Assembly: GCA_964534625.1 (NCBI GenBank)
Contig: CAZHRF010000001.1
Span: forward strand, 140,316-171,938
Reading direction: 5' to 3'
DNA: 31,623 nucleotides
DNA from: an uncultured archaeon
GTDB lineage: Archaea; Asgardarchaeota; Heimdallarchaeia; Heimdallarchaeales; Heimdallarchaeaceae
Shown here: one piece after another, positions 10,413 through 24,219 of the stretch
How the letters are laid out: each line of letters begins with the position of its first letter
Position numbering within the stretch: position 1 is the stretch's first letter
The notes under the pieces: generated by a model
Databases searched by the model: none
Told to the model about the DNA's origin: nothing
Seen by the model: the letters and a program-made list of their open reading frames with translations, nothing else
Position numbers and translations under genes: made by a program

Positions 10413-10976
10413 CTAATCACTTTTATCGAGATAATAATTTAATAAAATGATTTGTTCATCTATTTCCACATTTCCTAAAGAAAGATCAGAAAATTGATTA
10501 TTATCACCACCAGTATAATTGAAAATAAACATGTTCCGAGACCGATTATCCAGTTTATTGTCTACTCTTATTTCTTTGGATCTGACTACTCTAAATTTTT
10601 TTACATCCTCGTGAGTGTTGAAAATATCTTTGATAGTTGATTTTCGAATAGAAAGACCTGGTGTTAATCGACCCCTTTTTGATCTAGGCTCTTTGGTATG
10701 AGTAAAAGCACGCAATAGTAGATGAGCTGCAGAAAAAAAACTTGGCCCTAGATATCTCAAATCATTACCATTGAAAGTTACCATATATCCGGTCTTCTGA
10801 TACCTTGTGATAAAATAAAGTATAATGTCACTACGAAAATTGTTTGAAAGGAAAAAAGTATCTGAAATAGCTTTTATATAAGAACCAAGTTCATGGAGTT
10901 GACTTGATACATCAAAGATGCTTTTTTTATTAATATTAAGTGGATTACTTTTTATAACAAAAAACTGTTTGACCAT
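10413..10976 (-). CDS. trmY: Divergent TrmY-like SPOUT protein (tRNA pseudouridine54 N1-methyltransferase homologue), possibly inactive
   Basis: FFLSNNFRSD, TFNGNDLRYLGP, TPGLSI, LSLG and the YYLDK end match the TrmY scaffold; usual position next to pus10. ATG 10976 avoids overlap with srp54. Confidence 0.75.
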   Translation of the reverse strand: MVKQFFVIKSNPLNINKKSIFDVSSQLHELGSYIKAISDTFFLSNNFRSDIILYFITRYQKTGYMVTFNGNDLRYLGPSFFSAAHLLLRAFTHTKEPRSKRGRLTPGLSIRKSTIKDIFNTHEDVKKFRVVRSKEIRVDNKLDNRSRNMFIFNYTGGDNNQFSDLSLGNVEIDEQIILLNYYLDKSD

Positions 10977-10998
10977 TGATATCACACGAACATTAACA

Positions 10999-12336
10999 TT
11001 AACCAAACATATTTGGTAATCCTGGAATTTGAAATCCTCCACGTCTGCTTTTTTTCATTTTTTTCATCAATTGTTGAATCATTTTTTGTTGATTAATTAA
11101 TTCTTTTATTTCAGAGACAGGACGACCACTTCCACGTGATATGCGGTGAATCCGAGATTGGTTAAGTTTAACTTTATTATCTAACTCATCGTCCGTCATG
11201 GATGACATAATAATATTGAATTTCTCCATGTTCTCTTTTGACATATCAAACATTTCTTGATCCATAGTCATACCTAAACCTGGAACCATTGACATCATTC
11301 GTTTCATGGAACCCATTTTTCCAAACTGGTTTAGTAGTTCCATCATCTGTCTTAGTGTGATTTTTCCACTAATCATATCCATTGCTTGTTTTTTTGATGG
11401 TAAATCTTCTATCTCACTTACTTCTTTAAGTAAGCCTTCTAAATCTCCAATACCTAATAAACGGCCAACAAAAGATTCTGGTTTGAACTCCTCAATTGCA
11501 TCTATACCCTCACCATCTGTAACAAACTTAATGGGAACATCGGCAGCAGCTGCAGCAGAAATTGCTCCTCCTCCTTTTGCACTCCCATCCAATTTTGTAA
11601 TTATGATTGAACCAACGGGTGTATTTTCGACAAAAGCTTTTGCTTGGTCATAAGCAGCTTGACCAATATTTCCGTCAATAACAAGTATCACTTCATCAGG
11701 CTTAATTTTTTTATTAATATCTCGCATTTCTTTTAAGAGTGATTTTTCTTCTTTATGACGACCAGCAGTATCAACTAAAATAGCTTTATACTTTTCATCA
11801 AGAAACTTCTTGACCCCTCTAGCAGCTATCTTAACTGCATCATCATTGTCTGGATCTCCATATACTGATACTTCAATTGGTTCGCATAGTTGTTTGATTT
11901 GATCATAAGCACCCGGTCTAAAATTATCAGCTGTTACAACAGCTACCTTTTTACCCCGTTTTTTAATATATTTAGCCAATTTTGCGACAGTAGTTGTTTT
12001 TCCACTACCTTGTATACCCACTAACTCAATAACTGTGGGTTGATCTTGATGAATAGTTAGCGGATAATGCTTTTTTCCTAAAATTCGTGTAAGTTCATCA
12101 TATACAATAGAAATTATACTTTTCTGCCTAGAAAGGCCAGGTGCAAGTTCCTTCTCCAAAGACCGTTCTTCAACCTTATTAACAACTTCTACTGCAATAT
12201 CAAAGTTTACATCAGCTTCTAGTAAGGCACGAAGAATTTCGTTTTTAAGCTGTTTTATCGTTTCCTTGTCAGGTGGGCCTCGTTTAATCAGTCGAGAGAG
12301 TGAATCACGAATTTTAGTTCCTAAATTGCCTAACAT
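10999..12336 (-). CDS. srp54: Signal recognition particle protein SRP54
   Basis: RALLEADVN, GIQGSGKTTT, DTAGRH, TKLDGSAKGGG, Met-rich M domain with SRIHRISRGSG. Confidence 0.98.
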   Translation of the reverse strand: MLGNLGTKIRDSLSRLIKRGPPDKETIKQLKNEILRALLEADVNFDIAVEVVNKVEERSLEKELAPGLSRQKSIISIVYDELTRILGKKHYPLTIHQDQPTVIELVGIQGSGKTTTVAKLAKYIKKRGKKVAVVTADNFRPGAYDQIKQLCEPIEVSVYGDPDNDDAVKIAARGVKKFLDEKYKAILVDTAGRHKEEKSLLKEMRDINKKIKPDEVILVIDGNIGQAAYDQAKAFVENTPVGSIIITKLDGSAKGGGAISAAAAADVPIKFVTDGEGIDAIEEFKPESFVGRLLGIGDLEGLLKEVSEIEDLPSKKQAMDMISGKITLRQMMELLNQFGKMGSMKRMMSMVPGLGMTMDQEMFDMSKENMEKFNIIMSSMTDDELDNKVKLNQSRIHRISRGSGRPVSEIKELINQQKMIQQLMKKMKKSRRGGFQIPGLPNMFG

Positions 12337-17098: not shown

Positions 17099-17857
17099 AT
17101 GGTTCTCAATGAAAACTTAGGTTTACCAATTGCTAGTAAGGAAGACGAATTATTATTACCCGAACATTTAGTTGAGACTAAGGGCATAATTTCATACAAA
17201 GGTAATGACCTAAAAACACTAACAAAAAAACAGAAATGGACGGAAAAAGAAAAAGAAGAATTGATATATAAAACATATTTGGATGTAAAACGGATAGAAG
17301 ATAAAAGTTATTGGGAAAAAGTTCAGTTTGATATTTTGATGATTCTTTCGGGAAAAATTGGAAATGAATTTAAAAAAACAAGAGCTTATTACCGTTCAAT
17401 TGCAGATAATGGAGTTCATTATCCAGAGGTTTTTCAAGTGGCAGAAGGATATATTGAGTTTTTTCTTCAAAAACCTACTAAAAAGCATACTATTGTGAAT
17501 GATATTGTAGTTATACGGGCTCAAAAGATGGATATAATTGCAGTGCCACCTTCTTATGGAGTGACACTTATCAATCCTGCAGATAAAAATGCAGTAGTAG
17601 GAAGAATTAGATCTAGAGAGGTTGAGGAAATAGTTGAACCTTTTGAAGAAACACAAGGTGAAAGTTATTATAAATTAACTGATGGAAGGTGGGAATATAA
17701 CGCGAAGTATGATGAAATTCCTATGTTGAAACTAGAACCAACTCAAAATAGTTGGAGACATATGAAAAGAGGAACACCTGTTTATGAATCACAAATCAAG
17801 CATCCAAATGCAGTGGCACCTTTAGTGATCCCCAATCCCTTAGATTTTAATTTGTAA
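17099..17857 (+). CDS. Cupin-type glucose-6-phosphate isomerase homologue with degenerate metal site
   Basis: FDILMILSGKIGNEFKKT, YPEVFQVAEG..FFLQK, DIIAVPPSYG.TLINP, WEYNAKY follow the cupin-PGI scaffold. Confidence 0.8.
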   Translation: MVLNENLGLPIASKEDELLLPEHLVETKGIISYKGNDLKTLTKKQKWTEKEKEELIYKTYLDVKRIEDKSYWEKVQFDILMILSGKIGNEFKKTRAYYRSIADNGVHYPEVFQVAEGYIEFFLQKPTKKHTIVNDIVVIRAQKMDIIAVPPSYGVTLINPADKNAVVGRIRSREVEEIVEPFEETQGESYYKLTDGRWEYNAKYDEIPMLKLEPTQNSWRHMKRGTPVYESQIKHPNAVAPLVIPNPLDFNL

Positions 17858-18070: not shown

Positions 18071-18850
18071 TTATTGATATCTTTTAATTAGTTTCTTTCT
18101 CCCTTCTTTTATCCATGAACTTTCTTGATACATGATTTTCATTAATTCCAGCGATAATTTTTGTTCTTCTTTAGAGATGGTTTCTGTGTATATCGATATC
18201 GAGAATTCTAAGCTGATTATTTCTATTAATTTTTTTAACCATTGATAGACATTAAAATTATCTAAATTCTTTGTTGGTCGATATTTGCTTGTTCTACGGT
18301 CTGTTGGGCGTTGTAATCTGGCAATTAAACTATTGTTTAAATCTGTAAGGTTTGTATTTACTAATAATGTCGCGTGATGTAAAATATTATTGCCTTTTTT
18401 ATAACATGCAGCTCCCGATATCTTTTTACCTTCATGAAGGATATTTGTCTTATTCTCGATTTGAAGATCATTAATTCCCATATCCTCTAAACTCCTAACT
18501 ATTATTTTTGTAAAAAATGTTTCGAGTTTTTGTATATCATCTTTTTCTTTTATTGGGATATCTTCTGTATTAACAAATAAGCTAATATTCCAATTTCCTT
18601 CATCTTGAAAGACTGCTCCTCCACCAGATATCCTTCTATTTATCTCTATATTGTTCTCTTCGCAGTATTCTTGATTTACTTCTTCAATTAAATGCTGTCC
18701 TCGTCCTATAATTACAGATTGTTTGTTTTGCCAGATACGAATAGTTATTGCATAATCGGATTTTTCATGTAATTCCATAATGGCATGTTCCAATGCTAAA
18801 TTATATGACAAGTTAAATGATTTTGTATGTAAAAATCTTCCTTTTTTCAT
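18071..18850 (-). CDS. lplA: Lipoate-protein ligase A family, catalytic domain only
   Basis: NLALEHA, IWQNKQSVIIGRGQ, RRISGGGAVFQD.GN, GKKISG, HHATLL. Confidence 0.92.
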   Translation of the reverse strand: MKKGRFLHTKSFNLSYNLALEHAIMELHEKSDYAITIRIWQNKQSVIIGRGQHLIEEVNQEYCEENNIEINRRISGGGAVFQDEGNWNISLFVNTEDIPIKEKDDIQKLETFFTKIIVRSLEDMGINDLQIENKTNILHEGKKISGAACYKKGNNILHHATLLVNTNLTDLNNSLIARLQRPTDRRTSKYRPTKNLDNFNVYQWLKKLIEIISLEFSISIYTETISKEEQKLSLELMKIMYQESSWIKEGRKKLIKRYQ

Positions 18851-18896: not shown

Positions 18897-20339
18897 CTAA
18901 TTCTTTTTTCTTCTAGTATTGGCGATATGTATGGCTTTCCCCTGTGCAGATTGAACAGCTTCCATTATCATCTCAGGTAAAGTTGGGTGTGGATGTACTG
19001 TAAATCCTATGTCTTCGGCAGTTGCGCCCATTTCAAGTGCTAAAGTGACCTCACTAATCAATTGTGATGCATTTCCTCCAATAATCTCAACACCAAGTAG
19101 TATCCCCTCTTTTTCGTCAATGATGACTTTAACAAAACCTTCGGTTTGCATATTTATCATGGATCTACCTGAGGCTCTGAAAGGTGCCTTAACCGTTATA
19201 AATTGGAATCCTGCTATTTTTGCTTCATCTTCAGTCATTCCCACATAAGCTATTTCTGGATCTGTGTAAAATACTTCTGGCATCCCCCTAAAATCCGCTT
19301 CTGAAGGTTCTCCTGCAATTATTTCTGCTGCAATGATGCCTTGTTTTGTTGCTTTATGTGCCAAAAATGGTTTTCCAGTACAATCGCCCACAGCAAAAAT
19401 AGTGGGAATTGTCGTTTGTTGTTTAGAATTAACCTTTATGAAATTGTTTTTGTCATGCTTTATATCCAATTTATTTAAACCTAGTTTGCTGAAATTTTCG
19501 TTAGTCTTTCCTAAATAGACAAATATTTTCTCAACTTCGATTTCCTTTCCTATTTTATTTTTGTTTTCCAATATCTCCAAATTAACTTTTATTTTTTCTC
19601 CTTTAACCTCATTTTTGAGAATGTTTGTATTCTTCAGTATTAAAACTTTCAACTCTTTGAGTCTTGTTTCAAGAGTTTTCATTATATCTTGACTTATACC
19701 TTCTATAATTTTATCATTTTCAGTAACCAATGTTACTTTAACTCCCATTTTCGCAAAAAGTGTTGCAAATACAATTCCAATACCATCCCCCGTAATAATC
19801 AATATATCGTTGGGGATTTCATTAATATTTACCGCTTCTTTTGGACCAAATATGGTTGTACCATTAATTTCCAGTCCTCTTTTTTGTATTTCATTGGCAC
19901 CTGTGGCAATAATTAAGTAATCTGTTTCAATCACTCTTTTATTATTATTATTATTATCTTCACTTATTTCTACTTTATTTGGCGAAAGTATCTTTGCAAC
20001 ACCCATTATTTTTGTTACATTATTTCCCTTTAACAATTGATTAATCCCTCCAACTAATCTTTTTTGTATTCTTTCTTTCCATTTCTGCATCTGTTTGAGA
20101 TCAAAAGAAACATTATCGAAAGTTATTCCCATGTTTTTAGACTGCTCTTTAGCCTTATAGTAAAAATCTGTGGCTGATATAAGCGCATTAGTTGGGATAC
20201 ATCCCCAATTAAGACACTCTCCACCAATGTACTTTCTTTCTATGATAGCTACTTTCTTACCTAATTGTGCAGCTCTGATGGCAGCAGGATATCCTCCAGG
20301 CCCTGCTCCTATTACAACAACATCATATTTTTGTGACAT
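18897..20339 (-). CDS. lpdA: Dihydrolipoyl dehydrogenase (E3) homologue with degenerate NAD-binding motifs
   Basis: VIGAGPGGY, GGECLNWGCIP, IFAVGDC, LAHKA, TDPEIA, HPHPTLPE; operon context. Confidence 0.93.
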   Translation of the reverse strand: MSQKYDVVVIGAGPGGYPAAIRAAQLGKKVAIIERKYIGGECLNWGCIPTNALISATDFYYKAKEQSKNMGITFDNVSFDLKQMQKWKERIQKRLVGGINQLLKGNNVTKIMGVAKILSPNKVEISEDNNNNNKRVIETDYLIIATGANEIQKRGLEINGTTIFGPKEAVNINEIPNDILIITGDGIGIVFATLFAKMGVKVTLVTENDKIIEGISQDIMKTLETRLKELKVLILKNTNILKNEVKGEKIKVNLEILENKNKIGKEIEVEKIFVYLGKTNENFSKLGLNKLDIKHDKNNFIKVNSKQQTTIPTIFAVGDCTGKPFLAHKATKQGIIAAEIIAGEPSEADFRGMPEVFYTDPEIAYVGMTEDEAKIAGFQFITVKAPFRASGRSMINMQTEGFVKVIIDEKEGILLGVEIIGGNASQLISEVTLALEMGATAEDIGFTVHPHPTLPEMIMEAVQSAQGKAIHIANTRRKKN

Positions 20340-20379: not shown

Positions 20380-21648
20380 TTATAGTAATATCAAACTGGG
20401 ATTCTCTAAATAATAGATTAATAATTTTGTAAATCTAGCCCCCACTGCACCATCTACGACCCTGTGGTCTAATGATAATGCTATGTTCATCATCTTTCTT
20501 ATAGCTACTTCATATACTCCAGAGTTATTTTTGATTGCAACAGGTTGCATTCGACCTCGCATTATTCCTAATATCGCCACTTCGGGCCATTTAATAATTG
20601 GAGTTGCCATTAAACCCCCAATGTTTCCTGTACTAGTAATGGTAAATGTTCCGTCACTTACATCATCAAGTGACAATTTTCCTTCTCTGGCTTTAGTAGC
20701 TAGTTCATTTATTTCTTTTGAGAGTTCAATTAATCCTTTTTGATCGGCTTGTTTAATAACTGGAACAATCAGACCGTCATCTGTATCAACAGCTATTCCT
20801 ATATTATAATAATGTTTGATAACAATTTGATCCTTTTCATCGTCTAAAGAAGCATTTAATATGGGGAACTCTTTAAGTGCAGCAATTGTTGCTTTTATTA
20901 TGATTGGTAAGTAAGTTAGTTTTGTATCTGTGTCGTTTAATAGAAACCTAGATTTGTCTCTTAGTTGATCCATGTTTGTCATATCTACTTCTTCAACAAA
21001 TGTATAATGGGCAGCAGTACTTTTTGAATAGCGCATAGCTTTAACAATATTTCTTCTTAATCCTCTAAGTGGAATAATCTCCTCTTCTCCTTCAAATGTG
21101 TGTTCTCTCGCTTTCAGTACTTTATGCCCTTCTTTTGTTGATTCTTCAAATTTTTCTATATCTGCAAATGTTATTCTACCTGCTGTACCTGAACCTTTAA
21201 CTTCGGCTAAATCAATGTTCAATTCTCTTGCTTTCTTTCTAACTGCAGGTGCTGCAAGAATTTTTGCAGTTATTTGTTCTCTCTGTTTTTTTCTTCCTTC
21301 AACCTTTCTAAATGGGGTTGCAGGTTTAAAAAGAGATGGGTCTTCTTCTTTGTGTTGAACTTCGTCTTTCTTTTTTTGGATGCTTGACTTTCCATCAGAT
21401 GTTTGTTCCTCTGATTTAATTCTAACTAAAACTTCTCCTACTTTTACAATGTCTCCTTCTTTTACTTCGATAGAAACAATTTCACCAGAAAGCGGAGAGG
21501 TAAGATCAGTAGAAACCTTTTCTGTATTAATTTCAAGAAGTTCTTGTTCTTCTTTTACAAATTCTCCTTCACTAACAAAAATTTGTAAAATTTCAGCTTC
21601 GTGAATTCCCTCTCCAATATCTGCTAGTTTAAATTCATAAATACTCAT
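20380..21648 (-). CDS. pdhC: 2-oxoacid dehydrogenase E2, dihydrolipoamide acyltransferase (one lipoyl domain)
   Basis: LADIGEGIHEAEI, lipoyl-Lys TEKV, E3-binding AAPAVRKKARE...GSGTAGRI, catalytic DHRVVDG. Confidence 0.95.
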   Translation of the reverse strand: MSIYEFKLADIGEGIHEAEILQIFVSEGEFVKEEQELLEINTEKVSTDLTSPLSGEIVSIEVKEGDIVKVGEVLVRIKSEEQTSDGKSSIQKKKDEVQHKEEDPSLFKPATPFRKVEGRKKQREQITAKILAAPAVRKKARELNIDLAEVKGSGTAGRITFADIEKFEESTKEGHKVLKAREHTFEGEEEIIPLRGLRRNIVKAMRYSKSTAAHYTFVEEVDMTNMDQLRDKSRFLLNDTDTKLTYLPIIIKATIAALKEFPILNASLDDEKDQIVIKHYYNIGIAVDTDDGLIVPVIKQADQKGLIELSKEINELATKAREGKLSLDDVSDGTFTITSTGNIGGLMATPIIKWPEVAILGIMRGRMQPVAIKNNSGVYEVAIRKMMNIALSLDHRVVDGAVGARFTKLLIYYLENPSLILL

Positions 21649-21662
21649 TTTTATCACTCTAT

Positions 21663-22646
21663 TTAATAACTATAATTATATGATTTTAAGATGGCATCTA
21701 ATACTCTACTTTTAGATGGCATATACTTTTCTTCACCTATAAGAGGAATGGGGATATCATATCCTGTTACTCTCAATATTGGTGATTCCATGTATTCGAT
21801 ATATCGTTCTGCTATTAAAGCATTCAATTCAGAGTGAAAACCATTATTTCTTGGTCCCTCTGTTACACTTATCACTTTACCCGTTTTCTTAACTGATTTC
21901 TCAATTGTCTTAATATCTAATGGAACAAGTGTACGCAAATCTATTACTTCGACATTAATTTCATGCTCTTTTTGAGCTATTTCAGCTGCGTCCATTGAGA
22001 TATGAACCATCGTACCGTATGAGAGAATAGTAAGATCTTCTCCCTCATTCATTATATTTGCTTGACCAAATGGAATAAGATACTCTCCTTCAGGTACATC
22101 CTCTTTAAATGCACGATAAATTCTTTTTGGCTCTAAGAATATTACGGGATCGGGATCTCTAATAGCACTTGTAAGCAAGCCTTTTGCATCATATGGTCCA
22201 CTTGGAATAACTACTTTGAGACCAGCAGTATGGACAAAATATGTTTCTGGTGACTGTGAGTGATAGTGAGCACCTCTAACGCCGGCTCCATATGGAGTTC
22301 GAATAACAACTGGTGTTTTAAAAAGACCACCTGATCTGTATCTAAACTTTGCAAGTTCTGAAACAATTTGATCAAAAGCTGGCCAAGTAAAATCTACAAA
22401 TTGAATTTCTGCAATAGGTCTTAAACCATATAAAGCCATACCTATAGCAAAACCAATTATGCCTGATTCATTGAGCGGGGTATCTAAAACTCTATCATCT
22501 CCAAATTTATCAATAAGCCCATCTGTAGCACGGAATACTCCGCCATTGATACCGACATCCTCTCCCAATATAATGATATCTTTATTATTGTCCATCTCAT
22601 TTTCTAAAGTGTGTTTTATTGCTTCTACTAATGTCATCTCTGCCAT
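21663..22646 (-). CDS. pdhB: 2-oxoacid dehydrogenase E1 beta subunit
   Basis: GEDVGINGGVFRATDGL, DTPLNESGI, AEIQF.DF, HSQSPE, EVIDLRTL; ATG 22646 follows a GAGGTGA SD. Confidence 0.96.
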   Translation of the reverse strand: MAEMTLVEAIKHTLENEMDNNKDIIILGEDVGINGGVFRATDGLIDKFGDDRVLDTPLNESGIIGFAIGMALYGLRPIAEIQFVDFTWPAFDQIVSELAKFRYRSGGLFKTPVVIRTPYGAGVRGAHYHSQSPETYFVHTAGLKVVIPSGPYDAKGLLTSAIRDPDPVIFLEPKRIYRAFKEDVPEGEYLIPFGQANIMNEGEDLTILSYGTMVHISMDAAEIAQKEHEINVEVIDLRTLVPLDIKTIEKSVKKTGKVISVTEGPRNNGFHSELNALIAERYIEYMESPILRVTGYDIPIPLIGEEKYMPSKSRVLDAILKSYNYSY

Positions 22647-22647
22647 T

Positions 22648-23718
22648 TTAATCACCTCTCTCGTTAAAATTAAGTGCATATTCCTTTTGTTCTTCTAAAT
22701 GCCAAGGTAGTTCTTCATATACGTCATCAAATATTGTTTTGGTAGTAGGTTTTGGTATTGATTCTGCATCCTTAATAATTTGTGATAATTCTTTATTATA
22801 TTCTTCTATAATCTTCTTGTCTTTTTCTTCTGTTAGTATGCCTTTATCTATTAGGTATATCTTAAAACGTCGAATTGGATCCCTTTTCTGCCATTTTTTT
22901 AATTCCTCTTCTGAGCGATATTTTGTTGGATCATCTGAGCTAGTATGTGCTCCCAGTCTATATGTTCGAGATTCAATGAATGTTGGCCCCTCTCCTTTTC
23001 TAGCTCTTTCCGCAGCTTCTTTGACTGTAGCATATATAGCTAAAACGTCATTACCATCAACCGCTATACCCGGCATACCGTAACCAACGGCTTTATCGAC
23101 GAGTTCTTTTGCCCCCGTTTGCTTAGAAACAGGTAAAGAAATGGCATACTGATTGTTTTGGCAGAAGAAAATTGTAGGTGTTTTAAATACTCCCCCAAAA
23201 TTCATACCTGAGTGGAAATCATTACTTGATGTTGCACCATCACCAAAAAAGACAACAGAAACACTCCCGTCTTTCTTATACTTGGAAGCATAACCAGTAC
23301 CCACTGCATGTATGATCTGAGTACCAATAGGTGCACTTGGATTAACGAAATTAATTTTATTGTCTCCAAATAATCCTGGCAATCTTCTACCTTTTTGTGG
23401 GTCTAATTGGTTAGCAAAAAAATGGTTGATAATATTTTTGATAGGATAATCTCTATAGAGCGCAATCCCGTGTTCTCTGTAAGCTGGTATGACCCAATCC
23501 TTATCTTGTAAGGCAGCTGCAACTCCAACATGCGCTTCTTGTCCTTTAACGGGCACATGAAATGCTATCCTGCCTTGTCTCTGGAGTTTAAACGATTTAT
23601 CGTTTAATAAACGTAACTGAACCATGGTTTTATAGATTTTTAGTAGTTCTTTTTTTGATAGTTTTGGTTCATTTTCTGGATCAATGATCTTCCCATTTTC
23701 ATTAATAATTTGTTGCAT
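22648..23718 (-). CDS. pdhA: 2-oxoacid dehydrogenase E1 alpha subunit (pyruvate or branched-chain specificity not resolvable by eye)
   Basis: LQRQGRI, GQEA, YREHG, TPP motif GDGATS...NNQYAIS, TYRLGAHTSSDDPTKYR. Confidence 0.96.
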   Translation of the reverse strand: MQQIINENGKIIDPENEPKLSKKELLKIYKTMVQLRLLNDKSFKLQRQGRIAFHVPVKGQEAHVGVAAALQDKDWVIPAYREHGIALYRDYPIKNIINHFFANQLDPQKGRRLPGLFGDNKINFVNPSAPIGTQIIHAVGTGYASKYKKDGSVSVVFFGDGATSSNDFHSGMNFGGVFKTPTIFFCQNNQYAISLPVSKQTGAKELVDKAVGYGMPGIAVDGNDVLAIYATVKEAAERARKGEGPTFIESRTYRLGAHTSSDDPTKYRSEEELKKWQKRDPIRRFKIYLIDKGILTEEKDKKIIEEYNKELSQIIKDAESIPKPTTKTIFDDVYEELPWHLEEQKEYALNFNERGD

Positions 23719-23988: not shown

Positions 23989-24219
23989 TTGAATATAATG
24001 AATATAGAGACGAAAATAAATTCTATACCTGTAGTTCCAAAAAAAGAAAAGGAAGAGAAGTTTACTATATGGAACTTAGAAGAAATAATTACACAAAAAC
24101 CGAGAAGGAGTGTAAAAGAAATTGATGAAGCTTACAAAGTATTCAGGTTTTTTTCAACTGTCACTAAAAATAAAAAATTAAAGTCCTATAATTGTAAATT
24201 TCAAAATGATGCCAATTAG
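23989..24219 (+). CDS. Hypothetical small protein
   Basis: 76-codon open frame in an otherwise empty gap, K/E-rich like neighbouring proteins; no recognisable motif; start may be ATG 23998. Confidence 0.45.
   Translation: MNIMNIETKINSIPVVPKKEKEEKFTIWNLEEIITQKPRRSVKEIDEAYKVFRFFSTVTKNKKLKSYNCKFQNDAN

What the first reader, a model, noticed from the sequence alone, without database searches (positions are those of the whole stretch)
18897..20339. 2-oxoacid dehydrogenase E3 that appears to have selectively lost NAD+ binding: possible complex with a different electron acceptor
Seen: the FAD Rossmann motif (GAGPGG), the redox disulfide (C42/C47), GDC, LAHKA and the catalytic HPTxxE are all intact. 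The NAD-side motifs are all altered: the second dinucleotide motif reads IITGDGIGIV (consensus VIGGGxIGxE), the ribose-binding acidic residue reads VTLVT (consensus VTxxE), ATGS-P reads ATGANE, and VAVGRxPN reads VYLGKTN. Known: in E3/glutathione-reductase-family enzymes, the Lys after the disulfide (CIPSK) and the Glu of IGxE form a conserved pair at the flavin. Here both are gone together (N51, V190). Inference: domain-specific, co-ordinated loss in a full-length gene of an intact E1a-E1b-E2-E3-lplA operon suggests altered function rather than decay. Either lipoamide is re-oxidised through a non-NAD acceptor (quinone, ferredoxin/flavodoxin, thiol partner or O2), or this subunit forms a heterodimer with a canonical paralogue.
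Basis: partly seen in the sequence, partly recalled or inferred. Interest (0 to 1): 0.8.

Follow-up and report, generated by a model that had tools for sequence, protein, structure and literature searches.

The report
Asgard E3 with disabled NAD site
An anaerobic Heimdall-group archaeon keeps a complete, selected 2-oxoacid dehydrogenase operon, but its final enzyme (E3) has lost the conserved residues that normally bind NAD+, so it probably passes electrons to a different, still unknown acceptor.

Summary
The gene is on the minus strand (18897-20339). It is the E3 of an intact E1a-E1b-E2-E3-LplA operon in a Heimdallarchaeaceae genome.

- **Intact parts:** the FAD site, Cys42/Cys47, GDC and His451/Glu456.
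- **Lost residues:** G183T, G185D, E190V, E206T and K51N. Each is 98-100% conserved in 118 canonical relatives.
- **Domain specificity:** P0001 departs at 8 of 18 conserved NAD-domain positions, against 6 of 96 elsewhere (p=1.4e-4).
- **Sister sequence:** one syntenic sequence (91% identity) shares every change.
- **Selection:** dN/dS is 0.17 for the gene. It is 0.46 in the NAD domain and about 0.1 in the other domains. The NAD domain is still selected and models as a Rossmann fold, so this is not decay.
- **Other E3 genes:** no second NAD-type E3 was found. One 26%-identical NADPH-type paralogue is not linked to the complex.
- **Lifestyle:** the genome looks anaerobic and hydrogen-evolving, which argues against quinone or O2 as acceptor.

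Loss of NAD+ binding is likely but unproven, because MerA tolerates Ser at the second glycine. Other Asgard E3 lineages also show degenerate NAD loops. I found no published NAD-independent E3. I class this as a new variant of a known kind; it needs an enzyme assay.

The parts
22648..23718 (-). E1 alpha subunit (thiamine-diphosphate-dependent 2-oxoacid decarboxylase), 356 aa
   Evidence: PF00676 at 315 bits. TIGR03181 scores 427.7 against a cut-off of 411. The GDG..NN thiamine diphosphate motif is present. dN/dS 0.10.
21663..22679 (-). E1 beta subunit, 338 aa
   Evidence: PF02779 and PF02780. NF006667 scores 323.9 against a cut-off of 321. dN/dS 0.10.
20380..21657 (-). E2 acyltransferase with a lipoyl domain, an E3-binding domain and a catalytic domain, 425 aa
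   Evidence: PF00364, PF02817 (49.5 bits) and PF00198 (286 bits). Lipoyl Lys lies in NTEKVS and the catalytic motif is DHRVVDG. dN/dS 0.16.
18897..20339 (-). E3 homologue (P0001, 480 aa), the subject of the finding
   Evidence: TIGR01350 scores 483 against a cut-off of 408.8. Best solved relative is 1ebd, E 2e-101. AlphaFold2 model has pLDDT 94.8. Foldseek TM is 0.94 to E3 structures.
20199..20216 (-). Redox-active disulfide Cys42..Cys47 (CLNWGC), intact
   Evidence: C42 and C47 are invariant in 95 sequences.
20187..20189 (-). Asn51, replacing the flavin-side Lys of CIPSK
   Evidence: K in 116 of 118 canonical relatives. N in both P0001 and P0002.
19491..19889 (-). NAD-type Rossmann domain (residues 151-283). 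The fold is kept and the binding residues are changed.
   Evidence: 28% identity to canonical relatives, against 52-57% in the other domains. dN/dS is 0.46, against about 0.1 elsewhere. Strand 178-183, helix 186-197 and strand 201-205 are present in the model. Only P0001 and P0002 match this domain closely among 5.8 billion proteins.
19770..19793 (-). Degenerate dinucleotide loop TGDGIGIV (residues 183-190). Changes are G1->T, G2->D, and Glu190->Val.
   Evidence: G183, G185 and E190 are each 100% conserved in 118 canonical relatives.
19719..19724 (-). Thr206-Glu207 at the end of strand beta-2. The ribose-binding Glu is replaced, and an acidic residue sits one position later.
   Evidence: E in 116 of 118 canonical relatives. 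Sequence checked.
18972..18989 (-). His451..Glu456 (HPTLPE), the acid-base dyad of the lipoamide half-reaction, intact
   Evidence: H451 and E456 are invariant.
18071..18850 (-). Lipoate-protein ligase catalytic domain (LplA-N type), 259 aa
   Evidence: PF21948 at 143.5 bits. dN/dS 0.24.

Best explanation
This is the E3 subunit of a working archaeal 2-oxoacid dehydrogenase complex, but its canonical NAD+ site has been disabled.

**Shown from sequence**
- The lipoamide side is complete: the FAD site, the Cys42-Cys47 disulfide and the His451/Glu456 dyad of the partner subunit.
- The gene, its operon and even the altered domain are under purifying selection.

**Inferred**
- Dihydrolipoyl-E2 still reduces the disulfide and then FAD.
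- NAD+ can no longer dock in the usual way. Asp185 sits at the N-cap of the Rossmann helix, where the pyrophosphate would bind. Gly183 is Thr. The ribose-binding Glu206 is Thr.
- The Lys51/Glu190 charge pair beside flavin N5 has become Asn/Val.
- The reduced flavin is therefore re-oxidised by something other than free NAD+.

**Most likely acceptor (my guess)**
The genome looks like that of an anaerobic, ferredoxin-based hydrogen producer. A small redox protein (ferredoxin or flavodoxin type) docking on the now uncharged flavin face is my best guess. This would parallel the ferredoxin-dependent thioredoxin reductases, which also lost their NADPH site. The identity of the acceptor is not supported by any direct evidence here.
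For: - Five residues that are 98-100% conserved in 118 canonical relatives are replaced together: G183T, G185D, E190V, E206T and K51N. All five changes are shared by the 91%-identical syntenic sister sequence.
- The departures are concentrated in the NAD domain: 8 of 18 conserved positions against 6 of 96 elsewhere, p=1.4e-4.
- NAD-domain identity to relatives is 28%, against 52-57% in the other domains. The NAD/other ratio is 0.51, compared with a mean of 0.82 (5th percentile 0.62) for canonical pairs at similar divergence.
- Selection is still acting. dN/dS is 0.165 for E3 and about 0.1 in the FAD, central and interface domains. It is 0.46 in the NAD domain and is still below 1 (p=0.027), with conservative substitutions (p=0.002).
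- The model keeps the Rossmann strand-helix-strand. The helix starts at residue 186, which puts D185 at its N-cap.
- The rest of the complex is intact.
- No second TIGR01350-grade E3 was found in the 89.8%-complete genome.
- The lifestyle fits an anaerobe. There are six 2-oxoacid:ferredoxin oxidoreductase alpha hits and a group-4 [NiFe] hydrogenase with Hyp maturation genes. No haem-copper oxidase, cytochrome bd or MqnA was found.
- A precedent exists for flavin disulfide reductases that use ferredoxin instead of a pyridine nucleotide (PMC12796991, PMC10880999).
- Asp at the second-glycine position arose independently in another Asgard E3 clade, P0039/P0043.
Against: - No binding or activity data exist. 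Everything rests on motifs and a ligand-free model, and I could not inspect the model's coordinates.
- MerA of plasmid R100 carries VIGSSVVALE, which shows that the second glycine is not indispensable in this superfamily.
- Glu207 lies next to the lost Glu206 and might substitute for it.
- In canonical pairs the NAD domain can also evolve 2-3.6 times faster than other domains. The dN/dS contrast alone is therefore not exceptional.
- Dihydrolipoamide (about -290 mV; textbook value) is a poor reductant for low-potential ferredoxin. That acceptor would need a very low hydrogen pressure or a higher-potential carrier.
- No candidate partner gene lies in or beside the operon.
Confidence: 0.5

Rival explanations
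1. It is still an NAD+- or NADP+-dependent E3 that binds the dinucleotide in a non-canonical way. For example, the loop register could be shifted to G184-x-G186, with Glu207 taking the ribose contact.
For: - The Rossmann fold is retained and still under selection.
- MerA binds NADPH with Ser at the second glycine.
- E207 follows T206.
- The Thor/Loki E3 variants P0024 and P0028 share the one-residue shift of the acid (VTLIGER). They look like a cofactor switch rather than a loss.
Against: - Here G1, G2, the loop Glu190, Glu206 and Lys51 are all replaced at once, whereas MerA keeps G1, the Glu and the Lys.
- An Asp carboxylate at the helix N-cap should repel the pyrophosphate (inference from the classical Rossmann fingerprint).
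- TENDK has no basic residue to hold a 2'-phosphate, so NADP+ is unlikely.
Confidence: 0.25
2. The E3 is catalytically idle or on its way out. The complex is being lost in this family, and the NAD domain is only a structural remnant, for example needed for folding, dimerisation or assembly on E2.
For: - E2 and E3 occur in only 3 of 31 genomes of the family.
- NAD-domain dN/dS is four times that of the other domains.
- The stem leading to P0001/P0002 is long even when the NAD-domain columns are left out (0.55).
- First-stage notes report other motif-poor enzymes in the same window (not checked here).
Against: - All five operon genes have dN/dS of 0.10-0.24 over a divergence of dS about 0.2. There are no frameshifts or stops in either genome.
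- Catalytic Cys, His and Glu and the FAD motifs are intact.
- The NAD domain is not evolving neutrally.
- A dedicated lipoate ligase is retained in the operon.
Confidence: 0.17
3. The variant subunit works as a heterodimer with, or is backed up by, a canonical NAD-binding paralogue encoded elsewhere in the genome.
For: - A 481-aa class-I disulfide reductase lies at G000:C7:52216-53661 with an intact GGGYIA loop. It passes NCBIfam NF004947, named 'dihydrolipoyl dehydrogenase' (748 bits against a cut-off of 592).
- The genome is only 89.8% complete.
Against: - The paralogue is 26% identical to P0001.
- It fails TIGR01350 (330 bits against 408.8) and has an NADPH-type IIGR after strand beta-2.
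- It is not next to any lipoyl protein.
- Within the family it is found in G022 and G006, which lack E2, and it is absent from G002 and G011, which have the complex.
Confidence: 0.05

Closest known systems
Canonical dihydrolipoyl dehydrogenase (E3, EC 1.8.1.4), e.g. Geobacillus stearothermophilus 1EBD and Thermus thermophilus 2EQ6
   Same: - Same fold (TM 0.92-0.94, rmsd 1.3-1.8 Å) and 38-39% identity.
- Same FAD motifs, CxxxxC disulfide and His-Glu dyad.
- Same position in an E1-E2-E3 operon whose E2 has an E3-binding domain.
- Scores above the TIGR01350 cut-off.
   Different: - The NAD loop reads TGDGIGIV instead of GGGxIGxE.
- The Glu at the end of strand beta-2 is Thr.
- The Lys/Glu pair at the flavin is Asn/Val.
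Ferredoxin-dependent flavin thioredoxin reductases (FFTR) and related pyridine-nucleotide-independent thioredoxin reductases
   Same: Both are flavin disulfide oxidoreductases that keep the former NAD(P)H domain but not its binding function. They exchange electrons with a protein carrier instead (PMC12796991, PMC10880999). This is a resemblance in proposed mechanism only.
   Different: - FFTRs belong to the low-molecular-weight thioredoxin reductase family, which is a different architecture from class-I E3 and glutathione reductase enzymes.
- Their partner is established by experiment, whereas no partner is known here.
Mercuric reductase MerA (plasmid R100 / Tn21)
   Same: It belongs to the same class-I superfamily and is 26% identical to P0001. 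Its nucleotide loop also departs from GxGxxG, reading VIGSSVVALE.
   Different: - MerA keeps G1, the loop Glu and the CVPSK Lys, and it is NADPH-dependent.
- P0001 scores 278 bits against TIGR02053, whose cut-off is 454.
Other Asgard E3 genes with degenerate NAD loops (P0024/P0028, P0039/43/42/46/73, P0062, P0082)
   Same: - The three I checked (P0024, P0046, P0082) lie in E1a-E1b-E2-E3 operons.
- Their NAD domains are also unusually diverged, with NAD/other identity ratios of 0.49-0.65.
- Asp at G2 recurs in P0039 and P0043.
   Different: - They fall in at least three other places on the tree.
- They keep Glu190, and most keep Lys51.
- P0024/P0028 (GDGYVA plus GERK) look like an NADP+ switch.
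- None shares the full P0001 set of changes.
Archaeal four-gene 2-oxoacid dehydrogenase operons (Thermoplasma type)
   Same: The E1a-E1b-E2-E3 gene order is shared, together with an LplA-type lipoylation gene (PMC3904984).
   Different: In the published survey these operons track aerobic archaea (PMC3904984). This genome shows no terminal oxidase and has an anaerobic gene set.

Membership tests
Dihydrolipoyl dehydrogenase (E3, TIGR01350 / EC 1.8.1.4) | Whole-protein score above the curated family cut-off | tested here: met
   483 bits against a cut-off of 408.8.
Dihydrolipoyl dehydrogenase (E3, TIGR01350 / EC 1.8.1.4) | Class-I pyridine nucleotide-disulfide oxidoreductase fold with four domains | tested here: met
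   AlphaFold2 pLDDT 94.8. Foldseek TM 0.92-0.94 to solved E3 structures.
Dihydrolipoyl dehydrogenase (E3, TIGR01350 / EC 1.8.1.4) | FAD-binding GxGxxG and GD motifs | tested here: met
   GAGPGG at residues 11-16 and GDC at 318-320. These columns are invariant in the alignment.
Dihydrolipoyl dehydrogenase (E3, TIGR01350 / EC 1.8.1.4) | Redox-active CxxxxC disulfide | tested here: met
   C42 and C47.
Dihydrolipoyl dehydrogenase (E3, TIGR01350 / EC 1.8.1.4) | C-terminal His-Glu acid-base dyad (HPTxxE) | tested here: met
   H451 and E456.
Dihydrolipoyl dehydrogenase (E3, TIGR01350 / EC 1.8.1.4) | NAD+-binding Rossmann fingerprint: GxGxxG plus an acidic residue at the end of strand beta-2 | tested here: not met
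   The loop reads TGDGIG, with G1->T and G2->D. E206 is replaced by T, with E207 adjacent. The canonical residues are 98-100% conserved in 118 relatives.
Dihydrolipoyl dehydrogenase (E3, TIGR01350 / EC 1.8.1.4) | Lys (CIPSK) and Glu (IGxE) pair beside the flavin | tested here: not met
   N51 and V190. K is found in 116 of 118 canonical relatives and E in 118 of 118.
Dihydrolipoyl dehydrogenase (E3, TIGR01350 / EC 1.8.1.4) | NAD+-dependent oxidation of dihydrolipoamide | not testable with these tools
   This needs an enzyme assay.
2-oxoacid dehydrogenase complex operon (E1 alpha/beta, E2, E3) | E1 thiamine diphosphate motif; E2 lipoyl Lys, E3-binding domain and DHRxxDG; E3 gene adjacent | tested here: met
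Pyridine-nucleotide-independent flavin disulfide reductases (FFTR type) | Homology to low-molecular-weight thioredoxin reductase | tested here: not met
   TIGR01292 scores 80.6 bits against a cut-off of 343. The best families are all class-I E3, MerA or glutathione reductase.
Pyridine-nucleotide-independent flavin disulfide reductases (FFTR type) | Nucleotide-binding motif lost while the domain is kept | tested here: met
   This is tested at the motif level only.
Pyridine-nucleotide-independent flavin disulfide reductases (FFTR type) | Ferredoxin or another protein as redox partner | not testable with these tools
   No partner gene lies in the operon. Biochemistry is needed.
Mercuric reductase / glutathione reductase / mycothione reductase | Score above the family cut-off | tested here: not met
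   TIGR02053 scores 278 against 454. NF004776 scores 252 against 480. NF005884 scores 210 against 501.

The most novel reading that the evidence does not exclude
This would be the first pyridine-nucleotide-independent lipoamide dehydrogenase. In anaerobic Asgard archaea, the 2-oxoacid dehydrogenase complex would have been uncoupled from the NAD pool. It would instead be wired to a protein or other non-nicotinamide acceptor, such as a ferredoxin or flavodoxin feeding a hydrogenase. Several Asgard E3 lineages carry degenerate NAD loops inside intact operons. The uncoupling, or at least a change of cofactor, may therefore have happened repeatedly in the archaeal group closest to eukaryotes.
Probability: 0.35. 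Interest if true: 0.85.

Novelty: new variant of a known kind. Interest (0 to 1): 0.62.

Why it matters
E3 is among the most conserved flavoenzymes, and NADH formation is taken as a defining output of every lipoate-dependent 2-oxoacid dehydrogenase and glycine cleavage system. A selected E3 in an intact operon that cannot use NAD+ would have several consequences.

- It would add a new electron outlet to these complexes.
- It would explain how an anaerobe can run a complex that high NADH normally shuts down.
- It would give enzymologists a natural template for re-routing E3 electrons.
- It lies in Heimdallarchaeia, the archaeal relatives of eukaryotes, so it bears on reconstructions of the host's redox metabolism.
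- It also warns annotators: automated pipelines will name this gene an ordinary dihydrolipoyl dehydrogenase, because it passes the curated cut-off.

Tried and rejected
- **Plus-strand reading of the coordinates:** full of stops.
- **Second canonical E3 in the genome:** none found by TIGR01350 or by blastp of all ORFs. The nearest paralogue is of NADPH type and is not linked to the complex.
- **Relatives sharing the variant NAD domain:** a word-based search of residues 151-283 found only P0001 and P0002. A full HMMER search of 1.84 billion representatives gave nothing better than E 1.5e-10 and 42% identity, and the top hits inspected had canonical loops.
- **One common origin of all Asgard NAD-loop variants:** rejected. 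They fall in at least four places on a tree built without the NAD-domain columns.
- **dN/dS contrast as standalone proof:** weakened. Canonical control pairs show NAD/FAD dN ratios of 0.7-2.0, and one pair has NAD/interface 3.6.
- **Operon-encoded partner protein:** none. The neighbours are a p27-type zinc ribbon, a 74-aa ORF, a cupin PGI homologue, aRF1 and AspRS.
- **Quinone or oxygen route:** no COX1, cytochrome bd or MqnA. The NuoD-like hit is a hydrogenase subunit.
- **Literature:** searches for an NAD-independent lipoamide dehydrogenase, for Asgard PDH/E3, and for the Lys54/Glu192 pair returned nothing relevant.
- **Model coordinates:** these could not be read in the script box, so I made no pocket geometry or docking.
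Full report
**What is there.** The coordinates hold a 480-aa ORF on the minus strand, P0001. The plus strand is closed. It is the fourth gene of a minus-strand operon:
- E1 alpha, 22648-23718
- E1 beta, 21663-22679
- E2, 20380-21657
- E3, 18897-20339
- LplA catalytic domain, 18071-18850

All five have strong family matches. P0001 scores 483 bits on TIGR01350 (dihydrolipoyl dehydrogenase, cut-off 408.8). Its best solved relatives are E3 enzymes, with 1ebd at E 2e-101. E2 keeps a lipoyl lysine, an E3-binding domain and DHRVVDG, and E1 alpha keeps its thiamine diphosphate motif. The neighbours are housekeeping genes: aRF1, AspRS, SRP54, Pus10, Hef, a class-I tRNA synthetase and ribosomal proteins. 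The closest homologues are from Heimdall, Hod, Kari, Odin, Thor and Loki archaea. The window lies on contig C1 of a 3.37-Mb, 89.8%-complete genome.

**The observation.** I aligned P0001 with 129 homologues. Among the 118 with a canonical loop, these residues are conserved as follows: G183, G185 and E190 100%; E206 98%; K51 98%. P0001 has T, D, V, T and N at these positions. P0001 departs at 8 of 18 conserved positions in the NAD domain and at 6 of 96 conserved positions elsewhere, Fisher p=1.4e-4. Two of the six departures outside the NAD domain are S50T and K51N, which face the flavin.

Domain identities to canonical relatives are 52% (FAD), 28% (NAD), 57% (central) and 57% (interface). The NAD/other ratio is 0.51. 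For canonical pairs of similar divergence the mean ratio is 0.82 and the 5th percentile is 0.62.

ATGANE and GKTNEN differ little from the canonical Asgard ATGASF and GK-RANT. Glu207 also follows the lost Glu206 directly.

**Decay or function?** One other sequence, P0002, shares all 14 departures. It is 91% identical and comes from an 11.6-kb Logan contig. That contig is syntenic across the operon and its flanks.

Nei-Gojobori dN/dS between the two:

| Gene or E3 domain | dN/dS |
|---|---|
| E1 alpha | 0.10 |
| E1 beta | 0.10 |
| E2 | 0.16 |
| E3 (whole) | 0.165 |
| LplA | 0.24 |
| E3 FAD domain | 0.11 |
| E3 NAD domain | 0.46 |
| E3 central domain | 0.075 |
| E3 interface domain | 0.10 |

The NAD domain is still below neutrality (binomial p=0.027). 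Its 20 substitutions are much more conservative than random changes, with mean BLOSUM62 0.95 against -0.13, p=0.002. Canonical control pairs show NAD/FAD dN ratios of 0.7-2.0, and one pair has NAD/interface 3.6. The relaxation is therefore real but not extraordinary on its own.

The AlphaFold2 model is confident (pLDDT 94.8). It keeps the Rossmann strand 178-183, helix 186-197 and strand 201-205, which places Asp185 at the helix N-cap where the dinucleotide pyrophosphate normally sits. The overall fold matches E3 structures at TM 0.92-0.94. Taken together, the gene is not a pseudogene, the altered domain is kept as a folded and selected module, and its nucleotide-contact residues are gone.

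**Is NAD binding really lost?** I cannot show that it is. As a control I aligned MerA of plasmid R100, an NADPH enzyme of the same superfamily. Its loop reads VIGSSVVALE, so Ser at the second glycine is tolerated. MerA, however, keeps the first glycine, the loop Glu and the Lys after the disulfide, and P0001 has lost all of these. P0001 also places a carboxylate, not a hydroxyl, at the pyrophosphate position. The TENDK stretch after strand beta-2 has no basic residue for NADP+. I put retained nicotinamide use at about one in four.

**A canonical partner?** TIGR01350 and blastp against all ORFs find no second E3. One 481-aa paralogue (G000:C7:52216-53661) is 26% identical. It has GGGYIA followed by IIGR, an NADPH-type pattern. 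It fails TIGR01350 but passes an NCBIfam model named dihydrolipoyl dehydrogenase (NF004947, 748 bits against 592). Within the family it occurs in G022 and G006, which have no E2. It is missing from G002 and G011, which have the complex. It is therefore not the complex's E3, and a heterodimer is unlikely.

**Which acceptor?** No partner is encoded in or next to the operon. The genome shows:
- six 2-oxoacid:ferredoxin oxidoreductase alpha hits;
- a group-4 [NiFe] hydrogenase with HypF, HycI and HypD;
- no haem-copper oxidase, cytochrome bd or MqnA.

This looks like an anaerobic, ferredoxin-based hydrogen producer. Quinone or O2 as acceptor is therefore less attractive. A published survey found that lipoate-dependent complexes in archaea track aerobiosis and are lost in obligate anaerobes (PMC3904984). 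Consistent with that, only 3 of 31 genomes of this family have E2.

My working model is that this lineage kept the complex by uncoupling E3 from the NAD pool, and that a protein carrier docks on the now uncharged flavin face. The parallel is the ferredoxin-dependent thioredoxin reductases (PMC12796991, PMC10880999). This step is inference. The redox potential of lipoamide makes low-potential ferredoxin an uphill acceptor unless hydrogen is kept very low.

**Wider pattern.** Among the top 120 database hits, 11 further Asgard E3 sequences have non-canonical NAD loops:
- GDGYVALE with VTLIGERK in Thor/Loki
- GSD(A/T)SNLE
- GSGSS(N/S)LE
- SNGDITAVE
- GENNVTLE with CIPSA

Their NAD domains are also unusually diverged. 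On a tree built without the NAD-domain columns, the variants fall in at least four places, and P0001/P0002 sit alone on a long stem. The three variants I looked up all lie in E1a-E1b-E2-E3 operons. Some probably represent an NADP+ switch rather than a loss. Asp at the second glycine arose twice. None combines all the P0001 changes.

**Novelty.** Full-text searches found no report of an NAD-independent lipoamide dehydrogenase or of this feature in Asgard archaea. By sequence the protein belongs to the E3 family. It fails two of that family's defining features, the NAD fingerprint and the Lys/Glu pair. I therefore class it as a new variant of a known kind, pending an assay.

Noticed in passing
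G000:C10:52996-63607 (locus L003 covers 51742-55812): A glycine-cleavage cluster (gcvT, gcvH, gcvPA, gcvPB) has a single-Cys flavoprotein directly upstream of gcvT. The flavoprotein is 449 aa and resembles CoA-disulfide reductase or NADH oxidase, with loop GASAIG. Its TIGR03385 score is 318, below the cut-off of 579. It may stand in for the missing L-protein.
   Followed up: partly
G000:C7:52216-53661 (L002:1447-2892:-): This is an NADPH-type class-I disulfide reductase. It passes NCBIfam NF004947, named 'dihydrolipoyl dehydrogenase', but fails TIGR01350. In relatives it occurs without any E2. The automated name is probably wrong, and its substrate is unknown.
   Followed up: partly
Loci L028 (8001-9416), L029 (8001-9425), L030 (8001-9419); proteins P0024, P0028, P0039, P0042, P0043, P0046, P0062, P0073, P0082: Several Asgard lineages carry E3 genes with degenerate NAD loops inside intact E1-E2-E3 operons. 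The Thor/Loki type (GDGYVA plus GERK) looks like an NAD-to-NADP switch. P0039 and P0043 independently have Asp at the second glycine.
   Followed up: partly
G000:C3:66000-85999 (L032 625-9711): A group-4 [NiFe] hydrogenase module (30-kDa, 49-kDa/NiFe large, 4Fe-4S and 20-kDa subunits) lies next to HypF, HycI and HypD. No terminal oxidase or MqnA was found in the genome. This points to an anaerobic, hydrogen-evolving lifestyle.
   Followed up: partly
window 17099-17857 (+) and 10413-11042 (-): First-stage notes flag the cupin PGI homologue and a TrmY-like gene in this window as having lost catalytic motifs. I checked only that the PGI homologue is conserved in the sister contig, with dN/dS 0.15. 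Several motif-poor but selected enzymes in one window may indicate a fast-evolving lineage.
   Followed up: partly
window about 23995-24219 (+); L021 605-829: A 74-aa ORF of unknown function lies between the p27-type zinc-ribbon gene and the operon promoter region. It is conserved in the sister contig and has no Pfam family on record.
   Followed up: no
Family f1 genomes G001-G055: The 2-oxoacid dehydrogenase E2 is present in only 3 of 31 genomes of the family (G000, G002, G011). The complex is therefore patchy in Heimdallarchaeaceae.
   Followed up: yes
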